A stretch of DNA of 64,000 nt from an uncultured virus (IMG/VR IMGVR_UViG_3300030294_000026) (taxonomy: Duplodnaviria; Heunggongvirae; Uroviricota; Caudoviricetes), in the IMG/VR virus record IMGVR_UViG_3300030294_000026, positions 1-64,000 of that record. One strand, written 5' to 3'. The position numbers were made by a program, and so were the translations under genes. Position 1 is the first letter of the stretch, and every line of letters begins with the position of its first letter. This document shows, piece by piece, positions 14,167 through 55,419 of this stretch. A model generated the notes under the pieces. The model was given only the letters and a program-made list of their open reading frames with translations. It did not search any database and was not told the DNA's origin.

Positions 14167-14280
14167 TAGGGATAAATTTTGAGGTCGCTCCTCATTATTG
14201 ATAAGGCTATTTTATCAATCGGTAGCTTTCCCTACTTGCAATAGATTGGTAAATAAATTAAAATATAAGGAGATTGATAA
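14167..14280 (+). ncRNA. Putative cis-acting 3-way-junction/pseudoknot leader, copy A
   Basis: P1 TAGGGA/TCCCTA, P2 TGAGG/CCTCA, P3 GCTATT/GGTAGC; loop TTATCAATC complementary to 14244-14252 and 14272-14280. Confidence 0.6.
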
Positions 14281-14281
14281 A

Positions 14282-15193
14282 ATGATAGGAATTTACAAAA
14301 TTACAAATAAGATTAACGGGAGAGCGTACATAGGACAAAGTAAGAATATAGGAACACGATGGAGCAATCATATAAACAGACTTGAATGTAAAAAACACGA
14401 AAACAAAGAACTGCAAAAGGGTTTTAATAATTTTGGATACTTTAATTTCTCCTTTGAAATTATCGAAGAGTGTCAAGAAAAAGAATTATTATCTGTGGAA
14501 CTAAAATATATTAACCTTTATCAAGGCAATAGTTATAATATAACAAGTAATTCTAATAGTACTCTTTATGTTGATAATTTTAAATTTAATAAACATATAA
14601 ATATTAATTTAAATTATAATATTTTATCTCAAAGAGTAATTTTAACAGCATTAAAGAAATATTATGAAAGAAATACTAAAGAAATAAATATAGCATGTAG
14701 TGATATAATGAAAGAATATGATTTTGATCACTCGATATATTATAAAGGTATTCAAAGAATATATGATGAAATATCGCATTGTGAATTATTTGAACAAGTA
14801 TTAATTGAAAATTCATCTATTTTTAATTTGAAATTTAATGAGCAATATTACTTTTTAGCTAAATTGTTTTATGATAATAATATAATAGACAGTACAAAGA
14901 ATTTTATAAGACGTGGTTCGTTGAATTTATATGTAAAGATATTATGTAATAAGTTAAAGTTATATTATCATTTGGAAGATTTTAAAAGAGAATACAATAT
15001 AAATGAATTACCTTCATATAAACATTTTTCAAACATTAAAAGAATATTATTAATACCAATGATTGAAGAAATAGAACTAGTATTAAATAAAAATATAATT
15101 ATCGATGAACAAAAAGAAAGAGGAAAGATTGTAGGATTTAATATTATTACATCAAATACTCTACAAGAAACGCATTCTATACCCTCAAATTAA
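14282..15193 (+). CDS. GIY-YIG nuclease fused to Rep_3-like winged-helix region
   Basis: AAGGAG RBS before ATG 14282; GIYKITN..YIGQS; C-terminal YKHFSNIKRILLIPMIEEI..KERGKIVGFNI resembles Rep_3 WH2. Confidence 0.7.
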   Translation: MIGIYKITNKINGRAYIGQSKNIGTRWSNHINRLECKKHENKELQKGFNNFGYFNFSFEIIEECQEKELLSVELKYINLYQGNSYNITSNSNSTLYVDNFKFNKHININLNYNILSQRVILTALKKYYERNTKEINIACSDIMKEYDFDHSIYYKGIQRIYDEISHCELFEQVLIENSSIFNLKFNEQYYFLAKLFYDNNIIDSTKNFIRRGSLNLYVKILCNKLKLYYHLEDFKREYNINELPSYKHFSNIKRILLIPMIEEIELVLNKNIIIDEQKERGKIVGFNIITSNTLQETHSIPSN

Positions 15194-15411
15194 AGCCTTA
15201 CTTAGTCACAGGTATTAGTTGTTGTCTAAAAATGGAACGCCTTAGAGAGTTAAATGAACGCAAATAAAGCCTATATATAAATATATGACAAGAGTAGTAG
15301 AAAATATTACTCTTATTTTTATGTTTTTGATTATTATTATAACTACAGTATTTATATAGGAATTGTATTAGAAATGTTTTTTACAAAGTTGGTAATTGTA
15401 CCTTAAATAAT

Positions 15412-15458
15412 AAATTAATGTATAAACGATTGACAAATATTAAGTATTGGATTAATAT
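15412..15458 (+). promoter_or_regulatory. AAATTAATGTATAAA box plus sigma-A-like promoter
   Basis: Box 15412-15426, TTGACA 15430, 17 nt, TAATAT. Confidence 0.55.
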
Positions 15459-15495
15459 GGTATTAGAAAGAAAAGAAAGGAGGGAGAGTATTTGG

Positions 15496-16431
15496 ATGAA
15501 AGAAGTAAAAGGTATATTCAACAATAAACCATTTTCAATGATACCAAATATATTTGTAAAAAATATTGATGGTGAAGATTGCATAATGAATGAAAAGCAA
15601 TTAGCTATAGCATCTATTATTTATATGACTAGGAGTAGTAAAGATGTGTGCATTTTCAGTATAAATTCCATATGTGATAACTTAGGACTAGCATATAACT
15701 CAAGGATAAAGAAAACTATAATAGATACATTGCAACTATTAACTGATGAGGATCAAGTTCATTTCAAAAGTAAAATATATTTAAATGATGATTATACTAT
15801 TAAACATTTAAATATATTAAAAGCCAATGATATTATATATGGACAACTAATTAATCATATGGATGGAGATTTTTGTATGTTTTGTGATTTAGATATAGAT
15901 AAATTAGTAAAATATTCAATTGATAACGAAGTTGACTTATATTATTTAGTAAAACAATACATATACATATGCAGTTGTCTAAATAAAGATGAGAAATGCG
16001 AAGATTATTTATGTGCATATCCAAAATTAGATAGTATAGCTAATGCTTGCAATATAAAATCCAAAAATACAATTGTAAAATATAATAGTATCTTTAAAGA
16101 GTTAAAAATATTTAGTTTTGATTATGCAGGATATAAAATTGACAAAAATGGAAATGAAACAATAAGGAATGGAGTAATGTTTTATACTCCTTATGGCAAT
16201 GAAGAAATATTATTACAACGTCTAAAAATAGATAGAGATAAACATGGGTATTATAAAGTGAGTAATAAGTATAAAGAACTTATGAATTTGCAAATATCCA
16301 TAAGTAAGAAAATAACTAATATTAACCAATTAAAGGATAAGTCTATAATAGATTTAGAAAAATTAAAATTATTAGAACAAGAAAAAGAAAAAATAATTGA
16401 AATGATAAAAGAAGAAAAATTACCATTGTGA
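15496..16431 (+). CDS. Winged-helix protein, possible second replication initiator
   Basis: AGGGAG RBS before ATG 15496; FSMIPN start and CAYPKLDSIANACNIKSKNTIVKY HTH typical of phage/plasmid replication proteins. Confidence 0.55.
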   Translation: MKEVKGIFNNKPFSMIPNIFVKNIDGEDCIMNEKQLAIASIIYMTRSSKDVCIFSINSICDNLGLAYNSRIKKTIIDTLQLLTDEDQVHFKSKIYLNDDYTIKHLNILKANDIIYGQLINHMDGDFCMFCDLDIDKLVKYSIDNEVDLYYLVKQYIYICSCLNKDEKCEDYLCAYPKLDSIANACNIKSKNTIVKYNSIFKELKIFSFDYAGYKIDKNGNETIRNGVMFYTPYGNEEILLQRLKIDRDKHGYYKVSNKYKELMNLQISISKKITNINQLKDKSIIDLEKLKLLEQEKEKIIEMIKEEKLPL

Positions 16432-16524
16432 ACGAAAAGTTTTTCGTGAATCAATAATTCTCTATTGTATTAATATTTATTATATGGATATGTATTATAT
16501 TTAATATATATTGTTACGGTACAG

Positions 16525-16635
16525 TACAGGACTACTTTTCGTACAAATTAATTTCAAAATGTACAAAAAGTCGGTCAGTAATTTTTAATAAAGTACAAAA
16601 ACCAGTCCTGTAAAATTTAGATATGTACAAAAAGT
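16525..16635. repeat. Phased GTACAAAAA repeats and an inverted repeat after an AT-rich tract
   Basis: GTACAAAAA at 16561, 16593, 16625 (32-nt period); TACAGGACT 16525 / AGTCCTGTA 16604. Confidence 0.6.
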
Positions 16636-16688
16636 AGGAATTTGACAGTTTTAGTTAAAATAAAATATGAAAAGGAGATTTTATAAAA

Positions 16689-17573
16689 ATGAATAAAACA
16701 GAATACAAATTACATTATAATAATTTTGAAGAATTAAAAGTAAAAGGTGTTTATTTGATAAAGAATAAAGATAATGATAAATTAAAAATAGGTATAACCA
16801 ATAATTTAATGAGAAGGTTAAGTGAAATAAAAAAGAGTTTTCAATTTTGTGGAGTAATTCCAGAGTTAGATATAGAATGTTATATTGAATATAAACATAA
16901 TCTAGAATTAGAACAATATTTACATAAAGAATTAAAGGAATATAATTATCAGAATGAATGGTTTAGTATTGATAATATAGATATAGTATTAGAAAAATTA
17001 AATGATTTTAAATATGAAAAAGAACTCAAAGAAATTAAACCATTAATTAAAGAAAATTTTAATATACCTGAAGAAAATAATATAGATAAATTTATGGTAA
17101 AATCAATGAAATACTATTTATATAACCATTATGAGTGGCATGACTGTAAGAATTATACAAGATATAGTATTTATATAAAATGTAATGGAGACGAGTGGAC
17201 GGCATGTAGTATGATAGATGATATACAAGGAGATATATTTCATGATTGGAATTATTTCACGCATTGTTATGAAAAAGAACGTTATAATAAATTTGATGCT
17301 AGTGATGAATTAATAGATAAATTCAAAGAGTTAAATACTAACGCAATAATAAAAACAGAAAATGGAAATATAAATAGTTTAGAAGATCACTTTATACAAA
17401 AGTATAATAATTATTTATCAAATACATTAACCGATATTAAAGATTATATAAATAATACAGACGTTGAAATAGAGAATACATATGATATATCATTGAAAAG
17501 AGTTAAATTAGAAGAAAAAATTGAATATCTAATTAATAGAATGAAAACCATTAAAGAAAACTTAAGCATGTAA
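16689..17573 (+). CDS. GIY-YIG/T5orf172-like domain protein
   Basis: GVYLI..LKIGITNNLMRRL..LEQYLHKEL..NEWF. Confidence 0.8.
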   Translation: MNKTEYKLHYNNFEELKVKGVYLIKNKDNDKLKIGITNNLMRRLSEIKKSFQFCGVIPELDIECYIEYKHNLELEQYLHKELKEYNYQNEWFSIDNIDIVLEKLNDFKYEKELKEIKPLIKENFNIPEENNIDKFMVKSMKYYLYNHYEWHDCKNYTRYSIYIKCNGDEWTACSMIDDIQGDIFHDWNYFTHCYEKERYNKFDASDELIDKFKELNTNAIIKTENGNINSLEDHFIQKYNNYLSNTLTDIKDYINNTDVEIENTYDISLKRVKLEEKIEYLINRMKTIKENLSM

Positions 17574-17574
17574 C

Positions 17575-17621
17575 AAATTAATGTATAAAATGTTGACACA
17601 AAACCCAAAATATGTTAGAAT
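17575..17621 (+). promoter_or_regulatory. AAATTAATGTATAAA box plus sigma-A promoter
   Basis: Box 17575-17589, TTGACA 17593, 17 nt, TAGAAT. Confidence 0.7.
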
Positions 17622-17697
17622 AATATTATGGACAAGATAGTAGATATTTACTTGATTTCCAAAATGATAATAAATTAATATAAAGATAATAAAGGAG

Positions 17698-17913
17698 GTG
17701 AGAGTTATGAATAATGTAATAAAGTTTGCATCATTTAAGTCAAGAAAGGTTGAAGTAGATTTATATGAAACTAAATTAGCTAGATTTTGTGAGTTAAAGC
17801 CAAAGAACTTTAGTGATACTTTTGAAGGAAATGAAGAAATTGAGTTTGAAAATCTATATAACTGGTTGCAAATACATAAAAAGAACGAAAAACAAAGCAG
17901 AATGGCAAATTAA
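17698..17913 (+). CDS. Hypothetical protein
   Basis: AAGGAGGTG RBS (start probably at ATG 17707). Confidence 0.65.
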   Translation: MRVMNNVIKFASFKSRKVEVDLYETKLARFCELKPKNFSDTFEGNEEIEFENLYNWLQIHKKNEKQSRMAN

Positions 17914-17964
17914 TAATAAAATAATGTATAAATAAAAAATAATAAAGAAGGATGGTAAAAGAAA

Positions 17965-18186
17965 ATGACTGAAAACGGACAACCAAGCAAAAGAGAACAA
18001 CATATGGATTTCGGAGGGAACATTGTTTATAGGAAATATAGGATATGGGAAGAAAATACAGAAAGAAAAGATACTTCTTACATATATGAGGACGATTTTG
18101 ACATAAAAGAAAGGATGGAGGCTATTGAATGGGAAGAACAGTATAAGAAGAAGTGTCAAAAGATGCTAGATGAAAATAATAAATAA
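17965..18186 (+). CDS. Hypothetical protein
   Basis: 73 aa ORF in + strand run. Confidence 0.6.
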   Translation: MTENGQPSKREQHMDFGGNIVYRKYRIWEENTERKDTSYIYEDDFDIKERMEAIEWEEQYKKKCQKMLDENNK

Positions 18187-19189: not shown

Positions 19190-20836
19190 ATGTCTAAACA
19201 ATTATCTAATCAGAAGAATATACTTAAAATACATACAAAAAGACTAAGAAAAAATAATTGGAGTTTAGACTTAGCATTGGAAGAAGCTAAAAAAAATAAA
19301 GAAGTTATTCAACTAGGAGATAGCCAAACTCTAAGATTTATTAATGAAATATTGGAAATAGAAAATCAAGATGAACAAATTAACAAAATAAAAGAAGAAA
19401 TAAAGGAACTTGAAAAATTAGATAACTCCATAGAAAATAGAAAAAAAATAAAAGAATTAAATAAAAAGAAAAATGGATTGAAATTTAATCAAGATTATTT
19501 ATGTTTGGTTATAGATAAAATTGGAGATTTTGATAAATGTAATAGAAGATGTAGTTTCTTTGTAAATGGGAAACAATTTGTAAGATTATTAGGAACTACA
19601 GGTGGAATAAAAAACGAAACTATAGTATACGTTAGTAGAGATGTATTTGACCAATTACATAAAAAATTGGATAATGGTAGAGATTTAGATAAACCTTTAG
19701 TTCCAGCTAAATTAGAAGCATATAAAGCATTATCTTGTAGTATGAGTGTTCCAGTTAGAGATCCAAAAAGCATATTGGTAGTAGATGATTGCATAACTCA
19801 TTTCAAAGAAGATATAATACAAATAGATGATTCTAAAGGAGAAAGACCAGTTTTAGAAATAATAAAAGATTTTGATGTTGAATTAATTGATAGTGATGGT
19901 TATGGTCTTATATCTCCACAATTAAGTAAGTTATGGGGAGTAGATATTAAAGAATGTGAATTAAAAGACAAATTTGTACCAACAGGTTTTTGTATTAGAA
20001 ATGCTTTTACTAAGGGAATGGTTTTTACATTTGATTTTAAGAGATTTGCAAAACAAATAGCACATAAAAAAATAGTTAAAGATGTGTGGGGGCAAGAGAG
20101 AAATATAAATAAAGTTGATTTAATATTAACTACTTCCATGCTTAAATTATGGGACAGTTATGAATCATTAGAACACTATTTAGCTTGTTGCAAAGAAAAT
20201 GAATGGACTTTTAGTATTACAAAAATGTGTCCAAAAGAATTAGAAAATGAAAGAACATTAAATTATCAATTTTTACAGTCTTTTAAACTTAATGATGAAG
20301 ATATTAAAGAATTAATTAAACCAACTGTAGATAGTATCAAAGACAGTTTAACAATGGACTATGCAAAAACATTACTATTCCTAAAGGGAACTAAATTGAA
20401 TGATAAAAACTCATTTGTTGGAGAAGATGATTATGTTAAAGCGTTAATGGTTGATGAAGAATTATTAAATGATCCTTATATACAAGATAGAGTATATAAT
20501 ATGCGAAAGAAACGTATTCAAGATGCAAAAGTTGGTGTTTTAAATATGCAAGGATGCTATGCTATAATATCTGGCGACCCCTATTCACTATGTCAAAGTA
20601 TATTTGGTTTAGATGTAACAGGATTACTAAAAGCCGATGAATTATATAGTAAATATTGGTCAGATAAGAACAGTAAAGAAATAATAGCTTTTAGAGCACC
20701 TATGACATGTCATAATAATATAAGAAAATTACAAGTAACATCTACAGAAGAAATGCAACAATGGTATAAGTATATGAAAACATGCTTGATACTAAATTCA
20801 TGGGACACCACAACTCATGCTGAGAACGGTGCCTGA
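19190..20836 (+). CDS. yonO: YonO-like single-subunit (double-psi-barrel) phage RNA polymerase, N-terminal part
   Basis: PAKLEAYKAL, DSDGYGLISP, GFCIRNAFTKG, LNYQFLQ, FRAPMT; ends ENGA immediately before the catalytic aspartates. Confidence 0.85.
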   Translation: MSKQLSNQKNILKIHTKRLRKNNWSLDLALEEAKKNKEVIQLGDSQTLRFINEILEIENQDEQINKIKEEIKELEKLDNSIENRKKIKELNKKKNGLKFNQDYLCLVIDKIGDFDKCNRRCSFFVNGKQFVRLLGTTGGIKNETIVYVSRDVFDQLHKKLDNGRDLDKPLVPAKLEAYKALSCSMSVPVRDPKSILVVDDCITHFKEDIIQIDDSKGERPVLEIIKDFDVELIDSDGYGLISPQLSKLWGVDIKECELKDKFVPTGFCIRNAFTKGMVFTFDFKRFAKQIAHKKIVKDVWGQERNINKVDLILTTSMLKLWDSYESLEHYLACCKENEWTFSITKMCPKELENERTLNYQFLQSFKLNDEDIKELIKPTVDSIKDSLTMDYAKTLLFLKGTKLNDKNSFVGEDDYVKALMVDEELLNDPYIQDRVYNMRKKRIQDAKVGVLNMQGCYAIISGDPYSLCQSIFGLDVTGLLKADELYSKYWSDKNSKEIIAFRAPMTCHNNIRKLQVTSTEEMQQWYKYMKTCLILNSWDTTTHAENGA

Positions 20837-21980
20837 CAAAGATTCAGATGCATTTATTACCACAGATAATCCAGTTCTATTGAGAACGTATGAAAAATTG
20901 TTGGCTATATTTTGTGTTCAAAAATCAGCACAAAAAATTAAAGTCACTGAAAAAAGTCTTATTAAAGCAAACAAAGATGGTTTCGGAGATGATATAGGTA
21001 CAACTACAAATAGAATAACTGAAATGTTTGATATATTAGCTAAGTTTAAAGAAGACTCATTAGAATATAAGGAATTAATGTATCGTATAATGTGTGGACA
21101 ACATTATCAACAATGTGCGATAGATAAAATCAAGGGCATAAAATCTAATCCTATGCCTAAAGAATGGTATGATTCAAGAGTAAATAGGATTAAAGTAGAT
21201 ACTAATACAGGAGAAATATTGGATAATGAAGAAATTATAAAATTAAAAGAGTTTAATACAAAAATTGTAGCTGATAAAAAACCATATTTCTTTATATACA
21301 TATATCCTCAATTAAAAAATTCATATGATAAATTTATAAAAGAAACTGAAAATAAATGTATTACTCAGTTTGGAATTTCATTAAATGAATTATTCAAAAA
21401 GAAGAATAAAAATGAGATAGAAGAAAGTTTCATAAAATATTACAACTTAAAAAATCCAGTTAGTAATAATAATTGTGTAATGAATAAAATATGCAGAGAA
21501 ATAGAAAGAGAGTTTAAAGGAATTAAAAACAAATTAAACAAAACAAAGTTTGATTATACTGTTTTAAAAACAGATGAAAAATACACAAAGAATACTTATA
21601 ATAAAATAAAAATCATATATGAAGAATACATGATTGAGTTGTCACAATTTAAAATGTTGTCTAAAAAGAATAGAGTAGGTAAAGAAGATAAAAACGATGG
21701 AATGATAATATTAAAACAAAACTTCAAAGAAAAATGTCAAGAAGAATGTATTAATAAAGATGAACTTTGCAATATATTAGTTGATATGTGTTATAATACT
21801 GAAAAATCTAAACAATTCGTTTGGGATATGTGTGGTAATCAAATAATAAATAATTTATTACATAAAAATAATTTCATTATTAACTATCCTGAATTAGATA
21901 ATATTAATGGAGATGTAGAATTTGGTGGAGAAAACTTTATTCTAAATACTATTGAAATAAAGAAAGGAGAAGATAAATAA
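20817..21980 (+). CDS. yonO: YonO-like RNA polymerase, C-terminal part (+1 frame)
   Basis: DKDSD catalytic motif, DIGTTTNRIT, QQCAIDKIKG, KKPYFFIYIY; no RBS before its own ATG. Confidence 0.85.
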   Translation: MLRTVPDKDSDAFITTDNPVLLRTYEKLLAIFCVQKSAQKIKVTEKSLIKANKDGFGDDIGTTTNRITEMFDILAKFKEDSLEYKELMYRIMCGQHYQQCAIDKIKGIKSNPMPKEWYDSRVNRIKVDTNTGEILDNEEIIKLKEFNTKIVADKKPYFFIYIYPQLKNSYDKFIKETENKCITQFGISLNELFKKKNKNEIEESFIKYYNLKNPVSNNNCVMNKICREIEREFKGIKNKLNKTKFDYTVLKTDEKYTKNTYNKIKIIYEEYMIELSQFKMLSKKNRVGKEDKNDGMIILKQNFKEKCQEECINKDELCNILVDMCYNTEKSKQFVWDMCGNQIINNLLHKNNFIINYPELDNINGDVEFGGENFILNTIEIKKGEDK

Positions 21981-22768
21981 TGAAATTAGAATTAAATGAA
22001 AATAGTAAAATAAAAACAATATTAGAAGAAGGTATAGTATCAGATAAACCAAGTGAAACTATTAACTTATTGGCTAGACATTATAATAAGCAGAGTATGA
22101 ATCAAGAGCAAATAGTACAAGCAATAAATAAATTTATGATAAAAAATGATTCTAGTAAGTATAATAGTGTTACTTGGGAAGATTTAGTCGAAGGAATAGT
22201 AAAGACAGTTATAAAAAATAATAATGATTTAATAGAGGTAAAAGAAGTTAAGATGACTAAATCAGAAATAGAATATATTAAATCATTAGAAAACGAGAAA
22301 ATGCAAAAATTAATCTTTACATATTTAGTGTATGCTAAAATATTCAATCAAATAAATTCTAAAAATAAGAATTGGGTTAAAGGAGAATGTAGGAATGAAG
22401 TATTTAAAGACGCAGATATAAAAGAGACTGGGAAGGAACAATTAAAAACAATACATAAGTTAGTTAGTCTTGAAGTATTAAAGATAGCTAAAAATATAAC
22501 AAATAATAGTGTTAATTTAGATAATGTAATTAATGATAATAGTGAAGCAGAGTTAATAATAAACGATTTTAGAGAATTAGGATTACAATGGCTTAGATAT
22601 ATAGGTATAAAAGGTGTGTGTAGTTGTAGTGAATGTGGAACGCTATTTAAAAAGAAGTCTCCTAATAGTAAACAAAAAGTTTGCAACATATGTGCAAAAA
22701 ATATAAAGAATGAACAGAATAAAGGTTATTATCATAATTTAGGAAAATGTAAAACAACGTCTAAGTAA
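21980..22768 (+). CDS. RNAP-linked hypothetical protein with C-terminal Zn ribbon
   Basis: TAATG coupling to RNAP; CSECG..CNIC. Confidence 0.75.
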   Translation: MKLELNENSKIKTILEEGIVSDKPSETINLLARHYNKQSMNQEQIVQAINKFMIKNDSSKYNSVTWEDLVEGIVKTVIKNNNDLIEVKEVKMTKSEIEYIKSLENEKMQKLIFTYLVYAKIFNQINSKNKNWVKGECRNEVFKDADIKETGKEQLKTIHKLVSLEVLKIAKNITNNSVNLDNVINDNSEAELIINDFRELGLQWLRYIGIKGVCSCSECGTLFKKKSPNSKQKVCNICAKNIKNEQNKGYYHNLGKCKTTSK

Positions 22769-24814: not shown

Positions 24815-26296
24815 ATGGGAGGAAAAAAGAATAAAGAAAATGAAATTGTAATAAGTTTAAATGGAAATCAATCACAAGAAGTAGTAGGCAGTAATATGAG
24901 CATTTCATATTTATCAGATACAGGTAGAAAATGTGTTTTAGTTGAATTAGGAATGATACAAAATAATGATATGGCTGACGAATATATACTAAATAAGGAA
25001 ATGTTAAATAATATTCCTATTAAAGAGTCAGATTATTGTTTTATGTTTCATTTACATTGTGACCATATTGGGCTGTTCCCGTCGCTATCTTCAATGGGAT
25101 TTAAAGGCAGGATAATAACAACAAAAACCAATGCAATATTATCTAAACCAATGTTAAAAGATTGCATTAAGATTCATGTAAAAAATTGTGAGTATTTAAG
25201 GGAGAATAAAGATAAATTTAAAAAGAAAATAAAAGGAAAAGTTAAAGAATTATTTGAAGAAAAAGACTTAGATAATGTAATGAGTATGATGGACGTTTAT
25301 GAATTAGATAACATACATCATTTAGATGATTATTTATCTTTTAGATTTACAAATAACTCACATATTATTGGTGCTACACAATTAGAGATTTTCATAAAGA
25401 AATTTGGAACAAATGTTGTAAAAAAGATTTGTATTACAAGTGACTTAGGAAATACAGATAATTATTCATATACATATTTTACAGAACCAACAATTCCAGT
25501 GTCTAGTTCAAATATTCTTTTCGTAGAAAGTACATATGGATTAGGAGATAGAAATTTCAACAAGAGAATTTGTATAGAAGAAAGAAAACAATTGGAAAAA
25601 GATATATTAGGATTTGTTAATTACAATCATTCATGTATGATACCATGTTTTGCTTTATCTAGGCTTAGCAATATGATGTGTTGGCTCTATGATACATTTA
25701 AAGATAGATGGGACATGTCTAAGCCAATTGTAATAGCAACTAATCTAGGTAAAAAAATAAATGATAAAATGTATGAAGTTTTGGATAATGAAGACTTGGC
25801 TTATTGGGATGAAGTTATGACTTGGAAAGCTTTTAAATTCATAAATGACAACAAGAGTTGTGAAGCGTTTGTTAATTCTAAACCAAAAAGCTATTTAGTT
25901 TTAAGTTCTAGTGGGATGATTTCGGGTGGGTTTAGTAATCTATTTGTTAATCAAATGTTACAAGATTCTCATAATGGAATATTATTTTGTGGATACTGCT
26001 CGCCAAATACAATAGGTGGTCAATTATTAGATGATAGTACAGATACAGTTATTGTTGATGGCAAGACATTAAAAAAGAGATGTATTGTGAAAAGATATTA
26101 TTCATTTAGTAGCCATGCATCACAAAAAGATATTATAAATTATATCAAACAATGTGATTGTCAAAAAGTAATATTACAACATGGTTCAAATGATGCAAAA
26201 GAAGAATTAAAGAAATTATCTGAAATAGAATTAAGCAAAATGAACAGAACAACAAAAGTTATTTCATCGTATAAGGATATGCAAATGACTTTATAA
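24815..26296 (+). CDS. Metallo-beta-lactamase / beta-CASP nuclease
   Basis: HLHCDH, SHIIGA, TSDLG, ESTYG, IPCFALSR, SSGM, FSSHA, LQHG. Confidence 0.9.
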   Translation: MGGKKNKENEIVISLNGNQSQEVVGSNMSISYLSDTGRKCVLVELGMIQNNDMADEYILNKEMLNNIPIKESDYCFMFHLHCDHIGLFPSLSSMGFKGRIITTKTNAILSKPMLKDCIKIHVKNCEYLRENKDKFKKKIKGKVKELFEEKDLDNVMSMMDVYELDNIHHLDDYLSFRFTNNSHIIGATQLEIFIKKFGTNVVKKICITSDLGNTDNYSYTYFTEPTIPVSSSNILFVESTYGLGDRNFNKRICIEERKQLEKDILGFVNYNHSCMIPCFALSRLSNMMCWLYDTFKDRWDMSKPIVIATNLGKKINDKMYEVLDNEDLAYWDEVMTWKAFKFINDNKSCEAFVNSKPKSYLVLSSSGMISGGFSNLFVNQMLQDSHNGILFCGYCSPNTIGGQLLDDSTDTVIVDGKTLKKRCIVKRYYSFSSHASQKDIINYIKQCDCQKVILQHGSNDAKEELKKLSEIELSKMNRTTKVISSYKDMQMTL

Positions 26297-26727: not shown

Positions 26728-26837
26728 AGTAGAGACAAATTAAGGAGTCATGACCTTAATTAAAATAGCTTATCTCAATCGGCTATGTCTCTATTTTATT
26801 AATGATTGAGAAATAAATTATAGAAAGAAGATTGAGA
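26728..26837 (+). ncRNA. Putative cis-acting 3-way-junction/pseudoknot leader, copy B
   Basis: P1 AGTAGAGAC/GTCTCTATT, P2 AATTAAGG/CCTTAATT, P3 ATAGCT/GGCTAT; loop TATCTCAATC complementary to GATTGAGA at 26804 and 26830. Confidence 0.65.
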
Positions 26838-26840
26838 AAA

Positions 26841-28271
26841 ATGAAAAAGATAAGTAGAAAAATAATTTTAGATAATTTACCTAGAATTAAAGAAAATAGA
26901 AATAAAGAACGTATAGATTGGAGAAATTCGATTGGATATACAATAAATTTTATATATGCTGAGGTAGAAGGTTCAGTTTATATAAAACAATATAATAATG
27001 ACAAAAGAGATTTGGTTATTGTATATAAAGGAGAAGATTTTCATATTACATGTGATAACCTTGCAAAATGTGCTTTTGGAAAAATTTTAGGATTAATGAC
27101 AAAAAACTTTAAAGTTGAAATAGGTACAAGATTTAAAGATAATAAAAGAGATATAACCATAACAGACAGAGAATATAGAAAAGATAAAAGGGGACAAAAT
27201 TGGAAATGGTATAAATACACTTGCAACACATGTAACTGGACAGAAGGTTGGGTTGAAGAAGGAAATTTGCAAAGAGGTGATAATTGTTCTTGTTGTCGTG
27301 GTCTTGTTGTTATAGAAGGAATAAACGATATACCTACAACTGCTCCTTGGTTAATTCCTTATTTTCAAGGTGGTTATAATGAGGCTAAATTGTACACTAA
27401 ATGGGGAACTGGAAACTCCAATAATTTTGGAGGTTATATAAATCCTGTTTGTCCAGATTGTATAAGAATCAAAGATAAAAAAATTAAAATTAGAGATATA
27501 TATACAAATAAATCAATAGGATGTATCTGTAGTGATGGTCAGAGTTTTCCTAATAAGACAATGTTTAATATTTTAGAACAATTAGGAATAGATTTTATAC
27601 CAGAATACAATCCAGAATGGATTAAACCTAAACGTTATGATTTTTATATACCTTCAATAAATAAAATAATAGAAATGGATGGACAATTTCATAAAAATAA
27701 CAATCAAATGAATGGACAAACTTCCAAAGAAAGTAATGAGTTAGATGAGTATAAAGATAATTTAGCAAGAGAACGTGATATAGAGGTTATTAGAATTGAT
27801 TGTGATTATCCTAACATGGAAACTAGATTTGAATATATAAAAAATAATGTAATTCATAATAGTAGATTAAATAATCTATTTGATTTGAGTAAAATAGACT
27901 GGTTTAAATGTAACGAATTTGCTTTAAGTAATCTAGTTAAAGTAGCTTGTGACTTATGGAATAAAGGAATATATAGTATAAAAGGAATATCTAGTATTAT
28001 GCATATAAATGTTACAACAACTAGAACTTATTTAAAGAATGGAACAGAAAATAGTTGGTGCAATTACAATGGTGAAAAAGAACAAAATAAAAATATTAAA
28101 CAAATGGCAAGTAAAATATCTAAACCCATAAAATGTTTAACTGATAATAAATCATTTAAAAGTATAGTTGAAGCATCAAAATATTATAATATGGGAGAAT
28201 CAACTATAAGCATGGTTTGTGGTGGGAAAAGAAAAACTGCGAAAGGTATGGTCTTTGAATATGAAATGTGA
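26841..28271 (+). CDS. Free-standing homing-endonuclease-like protein (Zn ribbons, PD-(D/E)xK/Vsr-like core, NUMOD1)
   Basis: CNTC, CSCC, CPDC; RYDFYI..IIEMDGQFH; FKSIVEASKY..ISMVCGGKRKTAKG. Confidence 0.8.
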   Translation: MKKISRKIILDNLPRIKENRNKERIDWRNSIGYTINFIYAEVEGSVYIKQYNNDKRDLVIVYKGEDFHITCDNLAKCAFGKILGLMTKNFKVEIGTRFKDNKRDITITDREYRKDKRGQNWKWYKYTCNTCNWTEGWVEEGNLQRGDNCSCCRGLVVIEGINDIPTTAPWLIPYFQGGYNEAKLYTKWGTGNSNNFGGYINPVCPDCIRIKDKKIKIRDIYTNKSIGCICSDGQSFPNKTMFNILEQLGIDFIPEYNPEWIKPKRYDFYIPSINKIIEMDGQFHKNNNQMNGQTSKESNELDEYKDNLARERDIEVIRIDCDYPNMETRFEYIKNNVIHNSRLNNLFDLSKIDWFKCNEFALSNLVKVACDLWNKGIYSIKGISSIMHINVTTTRTYLKNGTENSWCNYNGEKEQNKNIKQMASKISKPIKCLTDNKSFKSIVEASKYYNMGESTISMVCGGKRKTAKGMVFEYEM

Positions 28272-28386
28272 TTTATGTCAACATCAAAGAGTATGTTGGA
28301 TGTATAAAGACCATATTAGTAAAATAGTAGACGGTGGAATTCAAATAACTATAGATAAATGTAGAGAATTTGATGAAGTTAGATAA
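28261..28386 (+). CDS. 41-aa Cys-rich peptide
   Basis: MKCDLCQHQRVCWMYKDHISKIVDGGIQITIDKCREFDEVR overlapping end of upstream gene. Confidence 0.55.
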   Translation: MKCDLCQHQRVCWMYKDHISKIVDGGIQITIDKCREFDEVR

Positions 28387-28790
28387 GGCATATACTCGTT
28401 GAGATATGACCTTTTATATGGGTGGATAGTGGAGTGATTAAAACAACTAATTTATTAGGAAATTAAGAATCGTGTATTGGTAATACAAATCGAATAAGAA
28501 TAGCTTCGATTTCCGAGCTATCGGACATTAATATATAGCATTTGACCTAGTTAGGGTATGGATACTAATCTGCTATTCAAGGCGTTATTCGGATTATCGT
28601 CTTTAGTTATGTTTTTACATATGCTAAAAATCCGATACCAAAAGACCTCACAAGGCTATGACTTTTCACTTGATGTTTGTCGGGCTAAAGTTATCCTCAA
28701 ATAGTGCCAATTATTTATGATGATGAAGTACAAGTCATTATAATATCACGTAGGCTAGTGGTTATCCATATGGGCGTGAAAATAATAAAT
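28387..28790 (+). ncRNA. Candidate large structured noncoding RNA
   Basis: ORF-free, GC above surroundings, at least six hairpins and a possible long-range closing helix. Confidence 0.5.
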
Positions 28791-28861
28791 ATTTATAATA
28801 AAGATAATCCTTGAACGTTGATGATAATGTGCAAGGTATTTTTTAATGAATATTTAAAAAG

Positions 28862-32758: not shown

Positions 32759-33027
32759 ATTTATACTCTACGAGGTTGTCATGCTAACGCATGATTTATT
32801 GTTGCGTAATCAGAGATTACTTACAATATAAATTGATTTTAAATGTGAATGAATTTGACTAGATGATTTAGTTTATCTAGTCTCTTTTATTATTTTTGTA
32901 GTGCTTATTTTTTATAGGAATGGGTAGTTATAAATAATAAATAAATTAAAAATAATATTGTTGTAAATTAGTATTCTATATGGTAATATTATCTTAAGAA
33001 TACTTAAATAAATTATATAGGAGGAAT

Positions 33028-33324
33028 TTGAATATGGAAAAGGTAAATTATAAATATAGTCAATCAGAAATGGTGGCTTACCTACTGCTCAATGGTTATA
33101 CATATAATAATGTTGAGGTAAAAGAAAATAAAAGATATAAAGGTGATTATAAAGTATTCTTTTATATTGAAGGCTATAAGAATGAATTAATTAAATTAGA
33201 ACAAGATTTCAAAAATAAAACCAATATATGTCTACAGGATTATATTAACAAACTATTGCAAGTGAAGAAAGTAATAGCTGATGCTATTAGAACTCAAAAT
33301 AATGCGAAGAACAAAGAAGAGTAA
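33028..33324 (+). CDS. Hypothetical protein
   Basis: AGGAGG RBS; MVAYLLLNG..KVFFY motif often seen before rep-like genes. Confidence 0.7.
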   Translation: MNMEKVNYKYSQSEMVAYLLLNGYTYNNVEVKENKRYKGDYKVFFYIEGYKNELIKLEQDFKNKTNICLQDYINKLLQVKKVIADAIRTQNNAKNKEE

Positions 33325-46551: not shown

Positions 46552-46588
46552 ACAAAATATAAAACTTATAAATGGAGGTGATGGATAA

Positions 46589-51559: not shown

Positions 51560-51689
51560 GCCATCGCCTCCCTCCCAATTAGGAATATTCGAGATGGCAA
51601 TATAATTATAACATTGTATGGAAGTAATTACAATTTAATGGAAAATAAATTTATTGTAAATAAGTATAGAATTGTGATATAATGGAGAT

Positions 51690-51837
51690 AATAAAAAGAA
51701 AAAGCCTAGCGTTGAAGCACTAAGCTATTTCTATAAACAATATCACGTTTTTAAAGTTTTCAAAGGACTATTGAATTGATATGTAAATGAATACTAAATC
51801 ACTGAATTAGCACTACTTAGTGGGGGGTGCTTTTTTC
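51690..51837 (+). ncRNA. Putative antitoxin RNA
   Basis: TTGTAA-18-TATAAT promoter at ~51654-51683; terminator AGCAC..GTGCT T6 overlapping the 3' end of the 51817 peptide gene. Confidence 0.55.
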
Positions 51838-51963
51838 AGTTGTCTCAAAATAAAAATCTTTGTAATGAATTTTAACTAGGTTTTCGGAATTTAGTGCTTT
51901 ATATAAAATTAATATAATACCTAATAATTCAATTACTTTAATAATAAAATCAAACATATCCAA
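51817..51963 (-). CDS. 48-aa single-TM peptide, type I toxin-like
   Basis: AGGAGGTG RBS, TTG; MDMFDFIIKVIELLGIILILYKALNSENLVKIHYKDFYFETTEKSTPH. Confidence 0.65.
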   Translation of the reverse strand: MDMFDFIIKVIELLGIILILYKALNSENLVKIHYKDFYFETTEKSTPH

Positions 51964-52276
51964 TAGCAACACCTCCTAGAATTATATTTTCAATAATCCT
52001 TTGAGGTAGGAAACGTAATCAACCACCGATCCACCATATCGGCATTAAAACAAATTAATATAAAATAAATTAATACTAAAAGGAGAGAATTAAAAATGTT
52101 ATATATAAAACTATAACTATAGTTAATTTCTTTTAGTACAAAATTAGTATACCATATATTTGTAAAAATGGATATAGTTAAATAAATATATTTGTTTATA
52201 AAATATGTAAATATTGTAACATTCCCTTACAAATGGTATAATTAGAAAAATACTATTTAATAGGGGTTGGATAATA

Positions 52277-53032
52277 ATGAATAAAATCTTTAAAAAGTTT
52301 ATATCAATAGGAATAATAGCAAGTTCAATAAGTATATTACCTTTAACTGGGGCAAGTGCAGAATGGAAACAAGACACTAAAGGTTGGTGGAATGCTGAGG
52401 ACAGTTCGTGGTCTAAAGGTTGGAAACAAATAGATGGCAAATGGTATTATTTTGGGCAAGACGGGTATATGGCTCATGATACCATAGTTGATGGATTTAA
52501 AATTGATAATAATGGAGTATGGATTCAAAATAACACTGTAAATAATACAACTGAAACAAGTACAAATGTTTCGAATACTGCTAATAGTAATAATAGTTCT
52601 AATACTAATTTAACTAGCAATGTAGATAATAGTACAAGTAGTAATGCAAGTGTAACATTAAATAATACTGGTGTGATTAATGCAAATACAACTAATAATG
52701 TAGCCGTAGATAATGTAAGTAAAGAAGAAAAAGATTATTATAAAGCATTGAAGAAAATCCAAGAAACTAATCAACAAAATGCTCAAAATGCCCAAGATAA
52801 TTTAAAGGCATATTATCAAAAACAATTAAAACAAGCAAAAGATGATTTAGCAGAAGCACAAAAAGAATTGAATAATGTCAAAGGGCAATTAACTAATAAG
52901 ACATTAGTTAAACAAGCAGATGGAACATGGCAATACGTATATGTTGCAGATACTCAAAAAGTTGCACAGTATGAAAAGAAAGTGAAATCTTGTCAAGATA
53001 ATGTTGATTATTATGAAAAATTAGCTAAATAA
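52277..53032 (+). CDS. Secreted cell-wall (choline-binding-type repeat) protein
   Basis: Signal peptide ending ASA-EW, KGWKQIDGKWYYFGQDGYM, N/S/T-rich linker, coiled coil. Confidence 0.85.
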   Translation: MNKIFKKFISIGIIASSISILPLTGASAEWKQDTKGWWNAEDSSWSKGWKQIDGKWYYFGQDGYMAHDTIVDGFKIDNNGVWIQNNTVNNTTETSTNVSNTANSNNSSNTNLTSNVDNSTSSNASVTLNNTGVINANTTNNVAVDNVSKEEKDYYKALKKIQETNQQNAQNAQDNLKAYYQKQLKQAKDDLAEAQKELNNVKGQLTNKTLVKQADGTWQYVYVADTQKVAQYEKKVKSCQDNVDYYEKLAK

Positions 53033-53123
53033 TTCTAAATTGATTAAGACTTTAGATATGAATGTCTAAGGTCTTTTATTGTTGTGGGAAGTTGTAAAAT
53101 ATGTAAGACTAGAATTTTGAGTT

Positions 53124-53615
53124 CTAGTCTTTTTCCAATTCGTACTTTTCATCATCTAAAAATTGTATTCCTGTTTTTAATGGTTTATAATTTTTATTTA
53201 AATATTCAAATATTTCAACTAAAGATTTATTTAATTCTTCATTTTTCAATATTATTGAAAGCATCATTAAATTGTTGTCAGTATTTTTATTCAAAGGATT
53301 AGCTAATGCAAATATGTTAGAAATAAATCCTTCAAACAAATTTATATCCATATGACCACGTTTTAATTGTGTTATTATTCCAGAATCAACCTTTGTCTTA
53401 GGAATCCATGCTAATTCACAATCTAATATATCAGCTAAGGCTTTTACCTCGGTATATCTAACTGTATCTCTATTCAATTTATTAGTAAAAGCATTTGTAG
53501 TAGTAGATATTCCATAATTATTTAACTTATCAATTATTTCGAAATATTTTAAATCACTATTGAATATATATTCTTTTAATTCTGTTTTTGTAGAGTTTTT
53601 ATTCATAAAAATCAT
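53124..53615 (-). CDS. HTH-type transcriptional regulator
   Basis: TTNAFTNKLNRDTVRYTEVKALADILDCELAW; divergent promoters upstream. Confidence 0.7.
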   Translation of the reverse strand: MIFMNKNSTKTELKEYIFNSDLKYFEIIDKLNNYGISTTTNAFTNKLNRDTVRYTEVKALADILDCELAWIPKTKVDSGIITQLKRGHMDINLFEGFISNIFALANPLNKNTDNNLMMLSIILKNEELNKSLVEIFEYLNKNYKPLKTGIQFLDDEKYELEKD

Positions 53616-53841
53616 CTCCTTACATTTATATTATAGCACTAAGTGTCAATTGATACAAATATAAAAAATAATTACTAATACGTTGACAAGGTAACTAATG
53701 AGTGATATTATAAATACATAAGGTTGGTAAACAAAACCAATCTAATAAAAATAAGGCAATAACAAAAGTAGTTATCACCTAGTATATCGCAAATATTAGT
53801 ATAACACATGTTAGAGTCTAATTCAAGGGAGATGTTGTATT

Positions 53842-54540
53842 ATGGAAAATTTTATGCAAACAGGTTTGAAAAGAGAAGCAATAATTGAGAACAATGAAGT
53901 GAGCAAGTACATTAAAGAACTGCATAAAGAATACGATTGGTTTTGTCAGTTTTACGAAATAGAAGATGTAGATTTTATAGGTAATTATGAATTGTTCTTA
54001 TCTTGTGGACATGTAGAATGGAATATTGATAGGCAAAATTTTTATTCCATTAAAGAAAATCAATTATATAATTTCTTTAGAAGATTAAAAACTGGTATTT
54101 ATAGAAGTATTTTAGTTAATGATAAAGAAGTATTAATTGATGATGATAACCTTACAGATTGTTTGTATAAAACTTTAGTTGAAAAAATAGAAAACTCAAG
54201 TATTGTTATGGGTTGTGACTCCTTAAAAGTCATACATATATATGGAGAAATAAGTGAACTAAAAGGATATGATGAAATGTCATATTTTGAAATATTTACA
54301 AGACAATTTTTAAATAATGAATGTGGTGAAGATTTTGGATTGATTGTTAAAAACGATCCTTATCAAAATGAGTTTAAGGATACTCAGTTTAAAGATGTTG
54401 ATGACTATTATAAGAGATGTAGTAATATAGTATTTGCTGAATATGTAGAAGAAAACAAATCAATGAATGGCAATGCTATTAGAGTTCAGTATAAAGGACG
54501 AGATGGACAAGTATTGAGTGAGATATGGCAACCGATATAA
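53842..54540 (+). CDS. Hypothetical moron protein
   Basis: Own TTGACA-17-TATTAT promoter at 53683, AGGGAG RBS. Confidence 0.75.
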   Translation: MENFMQTGLKREAIIENNEVSKYIKELHKEYDWFCQFYEIEDVDFIGNYELFLSCGHVEWNIDRQNFYSIKENQLYNFFRRLKTGIYRSILVNDKEVLIDDDNLTDCLYKTLVEKIENSSIVMGCDSLKVIHIYGEISELKGYDEMSYFEIFTRQFLNNECGEDFGLIVKNDPYQNEFKDTQFKDVDDYYKRCSNIVFAEYVEENKSMNGNAIRVQYKGRDGQVLSEIWQPI

Positions 54541-54660
54541 AATTAAATATTGTTTAAATGAATAAATATGGTATAATTAGAGTATAATAAAAGAAAAAGG
54601 ACGATTGCTCGTCCTATGTATCTCAGCCAGATGTAGGCTCTAATTTAAGTATTCGGCTCT

Positions 54661-54840
54661 TTACTTCAGAATATTTATAATTAGAGTCTTTATTATGTCT
54701 TGGTTAACACCATTTACAATAGCTTTAGATATCGAGTCTAATGCTAAAATAAACAATATAACTTTCCAAAGGCTTAATCCATTCTTTTTAACTGAAACTG
54801 GTTTAGTTTCGTAATCCAAATGAATACGTCTCTCTTTCAT
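54661..54840 (-). CDS. 59-aa single-TM peptide, type I toxin-like
   Basis: GGAGGAGGTG RBS before ATG 54840; LSLWKVILFILALDSI; convergent promoter at ~54550. Confidence 0.55.
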   Translation of the reverse strand: MKERRIHLDYETKPVSVKKNGLSLWKVILFILALDSISKAIVNGVNQDIIKTLIINILK

Positions 54841-55302
54841 CAAAATCACCTCCTCCAAAGTATTTTACCTTAAAAATAACTTATTATATCTAAGATAAAA
54901 TACTTTGGATTATGGTCGTTAGAACCATGAAAGACTACGTGATTTACTATATTGTTATAGATATTAATCTAATGTTTTAAGGTTTAATTTTGGACATGAT
55001 TTGTTCAAATTCATTTTTCATAACATTTCATTTTTAACCCTTTATCTATTTTAATACAGTGAATACATTATACCATAAATTTGAAAATATAGATATTATT
55101 ATTTTAATGAATTGATATTATAGGAATTGAAGAAAAGAAATTTAGAGATAACTTTATGCATACATAACGGAATTTGAGGATAAAATTAATATAATTATTG
55201 AATTAAATGGTGAAAGACAAGAATATATTTTGGAAATAGCTTAATTAATTTAATGGTTATTTAGAGTTGATTATAGGCAGAAATGCTTTATAATATAGAT
55301 AT

Positions 55303-55419
55303 GGAAGAAATAGATGTGGAATAAGGTTCGAAACTTATATTACATTGAACGGGCTATCTCCAATTAGCTTTTCTTCCTTTTTATTAATATTGGAGAAATA
55401 AATTAAATTATATTGGAGG
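55303..55419 (+). ncRNA. Putative cis-acting 3-way-junction/pseudoknot leader, copy C
   Basis: P1 GGAAGAAA/TTTCTTCC, P2 ATAAG/CTTAT, P3 GGCTA/TAGCT; loop TCTCCAAT complementary to ATTGGAG at 55389 and 55412. Confidence 0.65.

What the first reader, a model, noticed from the sequence alone, without database searches (positions are those of the whole stretch)
14167..55419. Same three-way-junction/pseudoknot RNA leader precedes three different nuclease genes
Seen: upstream of the GIY-YIG/Rep3 gene (14167-14280), the PD-(D/E)xK-NUMOD gene (26728-26837) and the GIY-YIG-NUMOD1 gene (55303-55419) is one architecture with different primary sequence. A P1 helix encloses a P2 hairpin and a GCT-containing P3 hairpin. 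The P3 loop (TTATCAATC / TATCTCAATC / TCTCCAAT) is complementary to TWO downstream copies of a target (GATTGRTAA / GATTGAGA / ATTGGAG). The first copy is always followed by AAATAAATTA; the second lies on or next to the Shine-Dalgarno/start codon. Loop and both targets co-vary between copies. Inference: a mobile cis-regulatory RNA that toggles between two pseudoknots to gate translation of toxic endonucleases, or an RNA partner of the nucleases. I do not recognise it as a named family.
Basis: partly seen in the sequence, partly recalled or inferred. Interest (0 to 1): 0.85.

Follow-up and report, generated by a model that had tools for sequence, protein, structure and literature searches.

The report
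Folded leader RNA of homing-endonuclease cassettes
Three selfish DNA-cutting-enzyme genes of this uncultured phage each start with the same small three-armed folded RNA, one loop of which matches two sites at the gene's ribosome landing zone, so it most likely throttles production of the nuclease; the same RNA turns up before such genes in many other phages.

Summary
All three leaders fold into a P1/P2/P3 three-way junction. In each, the P3 loop is complementary to two downstream sites: t1, about 10 nt after P1, and t2, on the Shine-Dalgarno/start region.

Covariance models found only these three copies in the window. They also found 41 distinct members in other viral contigs and in Bacillus phage KoopaTroopa. 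Helices covary strongly, and loop and targets co-vary family-wide.

Downstream genes are almost always homing endonucleases: GIY-YIG, HNH, EndoVII-like, a PD-(D/E)xK-like family, and DUF7487. A sigma-70-like promoter ends 5-11 nt before P1 in 19 of 41 members, so the fold is probably the 5' end of its own transcript.

AAATAAATTA is not part of the RNA family. It is this phage lineage's gene-start motif: 23 copies, all on one strand, many before virion genes. Here it sits between t1 and t2. The RNA is also not wholly unnamed. Four relatives hit Rfam int-alpA (RF02996) below threshold, and that motif has the same architecture.

Most likely function: translational control of the nuclease by pairing of the loop with the initiation region. 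The mechanism is untested, and a toggle, a double lock and action in trans all remain open. The logic resembles T4 endonuclease leaders.

The parts
14133..14161 (+). c1: sigma-70-like promoter, TTGACA-17-TAAACT; the -10 ends 6 nt before P1
   Evidence: 10 of 12 matches; consensus match only
14167..14234 (+). c1 three-way junction: P1 14167-14172/14229-14234; P2 14175-14199 (core stem 14180-14194); P3 14204-14211/14221-14228 with loop 14212-14220 (TTATCAATC)
   Evidence: MFE -19.1, z -2.48; model hits
14244..14253 (+). c1 target t1, GATTGGTAAA, 10 nt after P1; pairs with the P3 loop (10 bp, 1 G-U, -9.5 kcal/mol)
14251..14260 (+). c1 copy of the phage gene-start motif AAATAAATTA
14267..14284 (+). 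c1 SD AAGGAG (14267-14272) and target t2 GATTGATAAAATG (14272-14284), which runs through the ATG at 14282; 13 bp with the P3 5' strand plus loop, -12.9 kcal/mol
14282..15193 (+). GIY-YIG homing endonuclease, 303 aa (weak Rep3_C-like C-terminus)
26728..26795 (+). c2 three-way junction: P1 26728-26736/26787-26795; P2 26738-26745/26754-26761 with loop AGTCATGA (palindrome GTCATGAC); P3 26765-26770/26781-26786 with loop 26771-26780 (TATCTCAATC)
   Evidence: MFE -20.4, z -3.77
26804..26811 (+). c2 target t1, GATTGAGA (-11.1 kcal/mol with the loop)
26811..26820 (+). c2 copy of AAATAAATTA
26830..26843 (+). c2 target t2 GATTGAGA (26830-26837; -11.0 kcal/mol) and ATG 26841
26841..28271 (+). 476-aa homing endonuclease of the phrog_4538/phrog_9084/phrog_559 family, with a NUMOD-like C-terminus
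55267..55294 (+). c3: sigma-70-like promoter, TTGATT-16-TATAAT
55303..55377 (+). c3 three-way junction: P1 55303-55310/55370-55377; long P2 55313-55346 with loop GTTCGAAA (palindrome TTCGAA); P3 55352-55356/55365-55369 with loop 55357-55364 (TCTCCAAT)
   Evidence: MFE -21.3, z -3.49
55389..55396 (+). c3 target t1, ATTGGAGA (-10.5 kcal/mol)
55396..55405 (+). c3 copy of AAATAAATTA
55412..55430 (+). c3 target t2 ATTGGAGG (55412-55419, contains the SD GGAGG; -9.5 kcal/mol) and ATG 55428
55428..56675 (+). GIY-YIG-type homing endonuclease with NUMOD1 and I-HmuI NUMOD-like domains, 415 aa

Best explanation
Each of the three stretches is the 5' leader of a self-contained homing-endonuclease cassette: promoter, leader, nuclease ORF. 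A host-type promoter starts transcription at the foot of P1, so the mRNA begins with a compact three-way junction in which P3 stacks on P1 and P2 branches off.

The P3 loop is an address-specific anti-initiation sequence. It can pair with t1, about 10 nt after P1, to form a pseudoknot. It can also pair with t2, which lies on the Shine-Dalgarno sequence, the spacer or the start codon. Pairing at or beside the ribosome landing zone holds nuclease translation down.

In this phage lineage the phage's own gene-start motif AAATAAATTA lies between t1 and t2. It is probably a late promoter. Transcripts that begin there would lack the junction and t1 and would be freely translated. T4 uses the same logic for I-TevI, segB and mobE.

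Shown: the fold, its covariation, the matching of loop with t1 and t2, the link to nuclease genes, and the position of the promoter-like sites.

Inferred: that pairing lowers translation, that AAATAAATTA is a promoter, and how t1 and t2 share the work (toggle, double lock, or a dimer that clamps both).
For: Fold and uniqueness.

Helix covariation:
- Three window copies: 11 of 23 pairs change on both sides, 88.1% paired.
- 24 distinct rows: 22 of 23 pairs, 88.4% paired against 42-50% slid, 0 of 500 shuffles as high.

Loop and targets:
- Within the clade, cognate duplex score is 8.5 (t1) and 8.3 (t2), against 4.8 and 5.1 for 102 non-cognate pairs.
- Family-wide, t1 is present in 36 of 41 distinct members and t1+t2 in 35 of 41. 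In 2000 permutations of loops over tails the mean was 7.6 and the maximum 16.
- t2 covers the SD or start region in the window copies. In c1 the full-leader MFE pairs 13 nt through the ATG.

Promoter: a sigma-70-like promoter has its -10 ending 5-11 nt before P1 in 19 of 41 members. Any other 12-nt offset bin holds 0-5.

Gene association:
- Window and clade genes.
- 12 of 12 and 10 of 12 downstream ORFs match homing-endonuclease, HNH, GIY-YIG or EndoVII families.
- In KoopaTroopa the element lies between a PhoH2-like gene and a GIY-YIG nuclease gene.

Cassette: after a 96%-identical upstream gene, G000 carries c1 plus GIY-YIG, while G002 carries another leader plus a c2-family nuclease. Similarity stops at the stop codon.

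Phage-specific: models hit 40 of 80 viral loci that hold the P2 16-mer, against 1 of 80 loci from cellular genomes.

AAATAAATTA:
- 20 in the window, all on +, against 5.6 expected.
- By my reading, 13 of 20 lie 18-48 nt before an SD plus ATG.
- It precedes the head protease, virion structural proteins, an HU-like protein and another endonuclease.

T4 precedent: passages of PMC2988022.
Against: No functional data of any kind, and no RNA run was listed.

t1 is transcribed first, lies closer, and pairs on average more strongly than t2: -10.9 against -9.0 kcal/mol, stronger in 24 of 33 and weaker in 4 (my thresholds favour t1). The resting state may therefore leave t2 and the SD free.

Folded in full, the leaders are no more stable than shuffles for c1 and c3 (z -0.14 and -0.69).

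c2 has no good promoter next to P1, and 22 of 41 members fail the full promoter test.

In SPbeta, a relative with the same YonO-type polymerase, late genes are read from a single promoter (PMC5467207, passages). The motif is not enriched in c-st, D-1873 or the SPbeta stretch examined. Its identity as a promoter is therefore open.

Some homologous nuclease genes in G002 and G004 have no detected leader.

Two leaders precede genes that are not recognisably nucleases: L141 (unknown) and L215 (DnaD-like).
Confidence: 0.55

Rival explanations
1. The junction is released as a small antisense RNA, ended at the U-rich stretch after P1 or cut off there. It acts in trans on t1/t2 of read-through or late transcripts of the same cassette, in the manner of the P1/P7 C4 RNA or the P4 CI RNA. 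Each cassette has its own loop/target code, so that copies do not cross-talk.
For: It has its own promoter at P1.

A U-rich linker follows P1 in most members and in the int-alpA consensus, which Rfam files as an sRNA.

Loops are specific rather than generic anti-SD, and they differ among the 3-4 copies of one genome.

Precedent: the P4 CI RNA pairs with two complementary sites of its own transcript (PMC4825925, passage), and c4 lies in one operon with its targets icd and ant (PMC8198154, passages).
Against: t1 sits at a fixed 7-22 nt (median 9) after P1 and pairs strongly in cis. That would mask the loop of a released RNA that keeps t1.

The terminator scan flags no terminator at P1.

No Rfam C4 hit.
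Confidence: 0.15
2. The fold is mainly a 5'-terminal stabiliser and insulator. A base-paired 5' end shields the cassette's mRNA from 5'-end-dependent RNases and makes expression independent of the insertion site. Loop:t1 only tightens the fold.
For: The promoter places the transcript start at the foot of P1. t1 pairing is the stronger and nearer of the two. The element is portable between loci and gene families.
Against: It does not explain why t2, on the SD/start region, co-varies with the loop in 35 of 41 members. It also does not explain why the junction and P2 sequences are conserved.
Confidence: 0.1
3. The junction senses a ligand or a protein, and that sets which of the two pseudoknots forms: t1 bound = on, t2 bound = off.
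For: In the window and clade copies the two alternatives are nearly equal in energy, for example -11.1/-11.0, -10.5/-9.5, -11.9/-11.9 and -9.1/-9.2. Junction strands and the P2 loop are conserved across phages of 25-51% G+C.
Against: There is no gene context pointing to a metabolite. The conserved P2 was the search bait, so its conservation is partly circular. Family-wide, t1 is usually the stronger site.
Confidence: 0.1
4. The three short matching sequences are DNA operators bound by the endonuclease itself, as in I-TevI autorepression at its late promoter. They would not be RNA pairing partners.
For: I-TevI binds an operator that overlaps its late promoter (PMC2988022, passages). Here t1 abuts AAATAAATTA.
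Against: The same arrangement precedes nucleases with unrelated DNA-binding and catalytic domains. The inverted copy always sits in the loop of a hairpin whose stems show compensatory changes. t2 coincides with SD sequences. The t1-t2 spacing varies from 1 to 42 nt.
Confidence: 0.04
5. The RNA is a partner or guide of the nuclease, as omega RNAs are for IscB and TnpB.
For: The RNA is encoded next to nuclease genes, and one of its loops is variable.
Against: The variable loop matches the cassette's own leader, not an outside target. The nucleases belong to at least four unrelated families with their own DNA-binding domains.
Confidence: 0.03

Closest known systems
Rfam RF02996, int-alpA RNA motif (candidate RNA; function untested as far as I could see)
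   Same: As read from the Rfam consensus printed, the plan is the same:
- P1 encloses two hairpins.
- UAG-like and GAAAA-like junction strands.
- A P3 loop (CCUU) complementary to a conserved AAGG about 10 nt after P1, across a U-rich linker.

Four family members give their best Rfam match to it at exactly this element.
   Different: No copy reaches the gathering score: 31.0, 28.1, 28.1 and 23.9 bits against 35.8. The three window copies give no match even at E 10.

P2 is much longer here and carries a conserved or palindromic loop. A second target sits on the RBS. The context is homing endonucleases, not int/alpA.

The main text of the source paper (PMC5737381) does not discuss the motif, and its supplement could not be read.
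RBS-sequestering hairpins with an embedded late promoter before T-even homing endonucleases (I-TevI, I-TevII, I-TevIII, segB, mobE)
   Same: An upstream sequence pairs with the RBS of a homing-endonuclease gene. A phage promoter placed between the two would give transcripts free of the inhibitor (PMC2988022, passages). Here the candidate for that promoter is AAATAAATTA, between t1 and t2.
   Different: Those are simple, unrelated hairpins in read-through transcripts. This is a conserved, portable three-way junction with its own promoter, a pseudoknot and two targets, found across many phage lineages. Most of those lineages lack the internal motif.
Same-strand antisense RNAs of phage immunity: P1/P7 C4 RNA and P4 CI RNA
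   Same: A small folded RNA is co-transcribed with two copies of its own target. Loop and target sequences differ between related elements (the P1/P7 detail is from recall). For P4, CI pairs with seqA and seqC (PMC4825925, passage). c4, icd and ant share one operon (PMC8198154, passages).
   Different: No Rfam C4 match. Both targets lie downstream here. The genes controlled are nucleases, not antirepressor or replication genes. Processing by RNase P is not needed if transcription starts at P1.

Membership tests
Rfam int-alpA (RF02996) | Covariance-model score at or above the gathering score (35.8 bits) | tested here: not met
   Window: 0 matches at gathering and none at E up to 10 around each copy. 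Relatives: 31.0, 28.1, 28.1 and 23.9 bits in 4 of 31 loci scanned.
Rfam int-alpA (RF02996) | P1 enclosing two hairpins, with the P3 loop complementary to a site about 10 nt 3' of P1 | tested here: met
   (linker median 9 nt).
Rfam int-alpA (RF02996) | Location near integrase or alpA genes (from the family's name and recall) | tested here: not met
   The downstream genes are homing endonucleases.
T-even endonuclease RBS-sequestering leaders | Upstream RNA segment complementary to the SD/start region of the endonuclease gene | tested here: met
   8-13 bp, -9.3 to -13.7 kcal/mol in the window copies.
T-even endonuclease RBS-sequestering leaders | A phage promoter between inhibitor and RBS, so that late transcripts escape | tested here: inconclusive
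   AAATAAATTA lies there and is a strand-specific gene-start motif. Promoter activity cannot be tested here, and the motif is absent from other lineages' leaders.
T-even endonuclease RBS-sequestering leaders | Translation repressed in early transcripts | not testable with these tools
   No expression data; no RNA run was listed.
P1/P7 C4 and P4 CI antisense RNAs | Match to the Rfam C4 model | tested here: not met
P1/P7 C4 and P4 CI antisense RNAs | Antisense element and two complementary targets on one transcript | tested here: met
   Both targets are downstream, unlike seqA/seqC.
P1/P7 C4 and P4 CI antisense RNAs | Release of a stable small RNA that acts in trans | not testable with these tools
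   No RNA data.

The most novel reading that the evidence does not exclude
The leader is a programmable, self-addressed antisense lock that every cassette brings with it. Two junction RNAs pair through the self-complementary P2 loop. The dimer's two P3 loops clamp t1 and t2 on either side of the ribosome-binding site. Distinct P2 palindromes and P3 codes keep the 3-4 cassettes of one phage from cross-talking. The nuclease would then be silenced until late transcripts outnumber the lock, and the pair could even behave like a type I toxin-antitoxin module that makes the cassette hard to lose.
Probability: 0.12. Interest if true: 0.8.

Novelty: new variant of a known kind. Interest (0 to 1): 0.6.

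Why it matters
Homing endonucleases are the commonest selfish genes of large phages, and how they are kept harmless is known only for a few T4 cases. Here one conserved RNA module serves at least four unrelated nuclease families across phages of 25-51% G+C, and its loop/target code is rewritten for each gene. That makes it a general, portable expression controller for mobile nuclease cassettes.

It would also give the orphan int-alpA motif a likely function. It offers a natural, re-addressable translation lock for engineering, and a sequence marker for finding free-standing endonuclease cassettes in metagenomes.

Earlier notes of this same scan describe the family in at least eight other genomes. 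The family is therefore recurrent rather than special to this window.

Tried and rejected
Rfam:
- Nothing at gathering.
- Only chance-level hits around each copy.
- One chance hit in the whole window at E up to 1.

Other quick checks:
- No tRNA or tmRNA.
- Megablast of 10 kb against named phages: no match.
- Group I intron idea for the flanks: no Rfam support.

Relatives by portal protein (c-st, D-1873, SPbeta):
- No convincing leader in c-st or D-1873; best 19.5 bits.
- AAATAAATTA not enriched there: 23/11 against controls 14/8, and 3/7 against 8/4.
- Not enriched in 9 kb of SPbeta either: 7 against 4.8 expected.

Empty-site comparison for c2 in G004: the DNA is too diverged to place cassette ends.

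Cellular genomes: the 16-mer scan gave 80 loci, of which 1 matched the model.

RNA evidence: none was listed for a 9.9-kb stretch. This is no evidence either way.

Earlier-findings look-ups by place and by sequence: nothing.

Supplement of PMC5737381: unreadable. The supplements of the 10,000-RNA phage survey (PMC10690425) were not opened, and its main text does not describe this motif. Both supplements may list it.

My automated start-codon picks are unreliable, because TTG inside the targets was taken as a start. I therefore give hand-read distances only for the window copies.

Full report
**What is there.** The window is the first 64 kb of a 73.7-kb uncultured viral contig with 26% G+C. Its portal protein is 54% identical to that of Clostridium phages c-st and D-1873, and 38% identical to SPbeta YonE. 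It encodes a YonO-like polymerase (PF05183 hit), virion proteins and at least six endonuclease-like genes.

**Check of the observation.** Each core folds as a three-way junction as its minimum-free-energy structure, with z-scores of -2.5, -3.8 and -3.5. In each copy the P3 loop is complementary to two downstream sites of 8-13 nt. Predicted duplex energies are close within each copy: -9.5/-12.9, -11.1/-11.0 and -10.5/-9.5 kcal/mol.

A covariance model built from c2 alone retrieved c1 and c3 as the only significant further hits in the window: E 1.3e-3 and 0.018, with the next hit at 0.44. The three copies alone already show 11 of 23 pairs changed on both sides. That alignment was fitted to the model.

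**The AAATAAATTA motif.** The 10-mer that follows t1 occurs 20 times in the window, always on the + strand, against 5.6 expected. The contig has 23 on + and none on -.

By my reading, 13 of the 20 lie 18-48 nt before a Shine-Dalgarno sequence plus ATG. The genes behind them include the head maturation protease, two virion structural proteins, an HU-like protein and a further endonuclease. So it is this lineage's gene-start signal.

A late promoter is the simplest reading, but an RNA processing site is not excluded. In SPbeta the YonO polymerase uses one mapped start and no promoter sequence is known (PMC5467207, passages). The motif is not enriched in c-st, D-1873 or the SPbeta stretch examined.

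**Relatives.** A pattern scan of viral contigs followed by the model found three related contigs:
- G001, nearly identical to this contig but longer, with a fourth copy.
- G002, 218 kb, four copies.
- G004, 130 kb, four copies.

Across these 12 copies the loop and both targets change together in about nine variants, such as CTCAATC/GATTGAG, GTTAACC/GGTTAAC, ACTAACC/GGTTAGT and TATCCTAG/CTAGGATA. Cognate duplex scores of 8.5 and 8.3 compare with 4.8 and 5.1 for 102 non-cognate pairs.

**The wider family.** I used the 16-nt P2 segment shared by three copies as bait in viral contigs. Model R2 matched 17 of the 80. The rebuilt model R3 matched 23 of the remaining 63, and also Bacillus phage KoopaTroopa.

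The same bait in cellular genomes gave 80 loci, of which 1 matched. The RNA is therefore a phage element and the bait alone is not enough.

On 24 distinct rows, 22 of 23 pairs change on both sides. 88.4% of cells pair, against 42-50% when partners are slid, and 0 of 500 shuffles reach the observed values. The alignment is fitted to the model.

Over 41 distinct members, a t1 site lies 3-22 nt after P1 in 36, and t1 plus t2 occur in 35. Permuting loops over tails gives a mean of 7.6 and a maximum of 16 in 2000 trials.

Members from other lineages lack AAATAAATTA but keep both targets. KoopaTroopa reads GAGTTGG-GGAAA-GAGTTGG-CAAA-ATG with loop CCAACTC.

**What it heads.** Downstream ORFs match homing-endonuclease, HNH, GIY-YIG, EndoVII or DUF7487 families:
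- Window and clade genes.
- 12 of 12 ORFs.
- 10 of 12 ORFs.

Exceptions are L141/L197 (unknown protein), L215 (DnaD-like) and L175 (an unnamed PHROG). L140 looks like GIY-YIG only by eye.

In KoopaTroopa the element fills the gap between a PhoH2-like gene and an annotated GIY-YIG nuclease.

Not every endonuclease gene has the leader. Three of the six in the window lack it, as do several homologues in G002 and G004.

**Cassette.** After an upstream gene that is 96% identical, G000 carries promoter plus c1 plus a GIY-YIG gene. G002 carries another promoter, a different leader (L136) and a c2-family nuclease. Similarity stops at the upstream stop codon. Promoter, leader and ORF thus behave as one insert.

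**Transcript start.** A sigma-70-like promoter has its -10 ending 5-11 nt before the conserved part of P1 in 19 of 41 members. Any other 12-nt offset bin holds 0-5. In the window this applies to c1 and c3. c2 has only a weak site 49 nt upstream. Single matches mean little in A+T-rich DNA; the fixed spacing is the evidence.

**Relation to known families.** No Rfam family is reached at threshold. However, four relatives have their best Rfam match at this element to int-alpA (RF02996), at 31.0, 28.1, 28.1 and 23.9 bits against a gathering score of 35.8.

The printed consensus of that family has the same plan: P1, a UAG strand, P2, a GAAAA strand, P3 with a CCUU loop, a U-rich linker of about 10 nt, then AAGG. 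I read the leaders as a long-P2, phage-borne relative or variant of int-alpA, not as a member by Rfam's rule.

What int-alpA does is not stated in the main text of its source paper, and the supplement could not be read.

**Mechanism.** The best-supported reading is control of translation initiation by pairing of the P3 loop at the ribosome landing zone. In this lineage, transcripts that start at the internal motif would bypass it, as described for T4 endonuclease genes (PMC2988022, passages).

The weak point is t1. It is nearer, made first, and on average the stronger partner: -10.9 against -9.0 kcal/mol, stronger in 24 of 33 (my thresholds favour t1). The resting fold may therefore leave t2 free.

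Three ways out remain open:
- A toggle set by some factor.
- A bulky pseudoknot that blocks the 30S subunit from either site. The t1-t2 gap has a median of 14 nt.
- A dimer that holds both sites.

**P2 loop.** In 11 of the 12 clade copies the P2 apical loop holds a perfect 6-nt palindrome. There are seven different ones: TCATGA, TCGCGA, TTCGAA, GTCGAC, TGATCA, TTGCAA and TAATTA.

The central four bases cannot pair within a hairpin, so self-complementarity seems to be selected. That fits loop-loop dimerisation. A DNA-level cause is not excluded, and TAATTA would give a weak contact. In the wider family the loop is constant only because it was the bait.

**Earlier notes of this scan** describe the same kind of leader in at least eight other genomes. 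They include the int-alpA link and a self-complementary loop. They agree with this report but are not independent evidence.

**Verdict.** This is a real, conserved RNA family tied to homing-endonuclease cassettes. It is a variant of a catalogued but unexplained motif, its function is inferred and not shown, and the AAATAAATTA element is a separate, lineage-specific signal.

Noticed in passing
window 22985-57617 (20 sites): AAATAAATTA is a strictly + strand gene-start motif: 23 in the contig and 0 on the other strand. It is usually preceded by TATA or AATA and lies 18-48 nt before start codons of virion and other genes. It may be the promoter of the phage's YonO-like polymerase or a processing site. 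A beta-CASP/RMMBL RNase-like gene lies at 24815-26296.
   Followed up: partly
window 12449-12600 and 14005-14025: Five or more direct repeats of about 16 nt (AGTCGGTATTT(T/A)ATC-like) lie upstream of gene 12669-14015, with one more at its 3' end. They look like iterons of a replication origin. One repeat shares 12 nt with the P3 strand of leader c1.
   Followed up: no
window 28272-28860: A 590-nt stretch without an ORF lies directly after the c2 endonuclease gene. It is slightly richer in G+C (31% against 26%). It has no Rfam hit and no similarity in G002 or G004. SPbeta has an unannotated non-coding RNA in the comparable region after yonN.
   Followed up: partly
window 32960-33040; G004 near 121678: Before gene 33034 a simple hairpin (AGTATTCT...AGAATACT) abuts AAATAAATTA. 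Its 5' arm is also complementary to the start-codon region (TTCTATAT against ATATGGAA), and this is conserved in G004. It may be the same logic as the endonuclease leaders in a simpler form.
   Followed up: no
window 16520-16640: Three repeats of GTACAAAAA(G/C)... lie upstream of the T5orf172/GIY-YIG-like gene at 16689.
   Followed up: no
window 19190-22768: The YonO-like RNA polymerase seems to be split into two or three consecutive ORFs of 548, 387 and 262 aa. Only the first hits PF05183.
   Followed up: no
L172 219-514 (another viral contig): A permuted tmRNA gene (103.7 bits) lies next to a leader plus HNH cassette in an unrelated viral contig.
   Followed up: no
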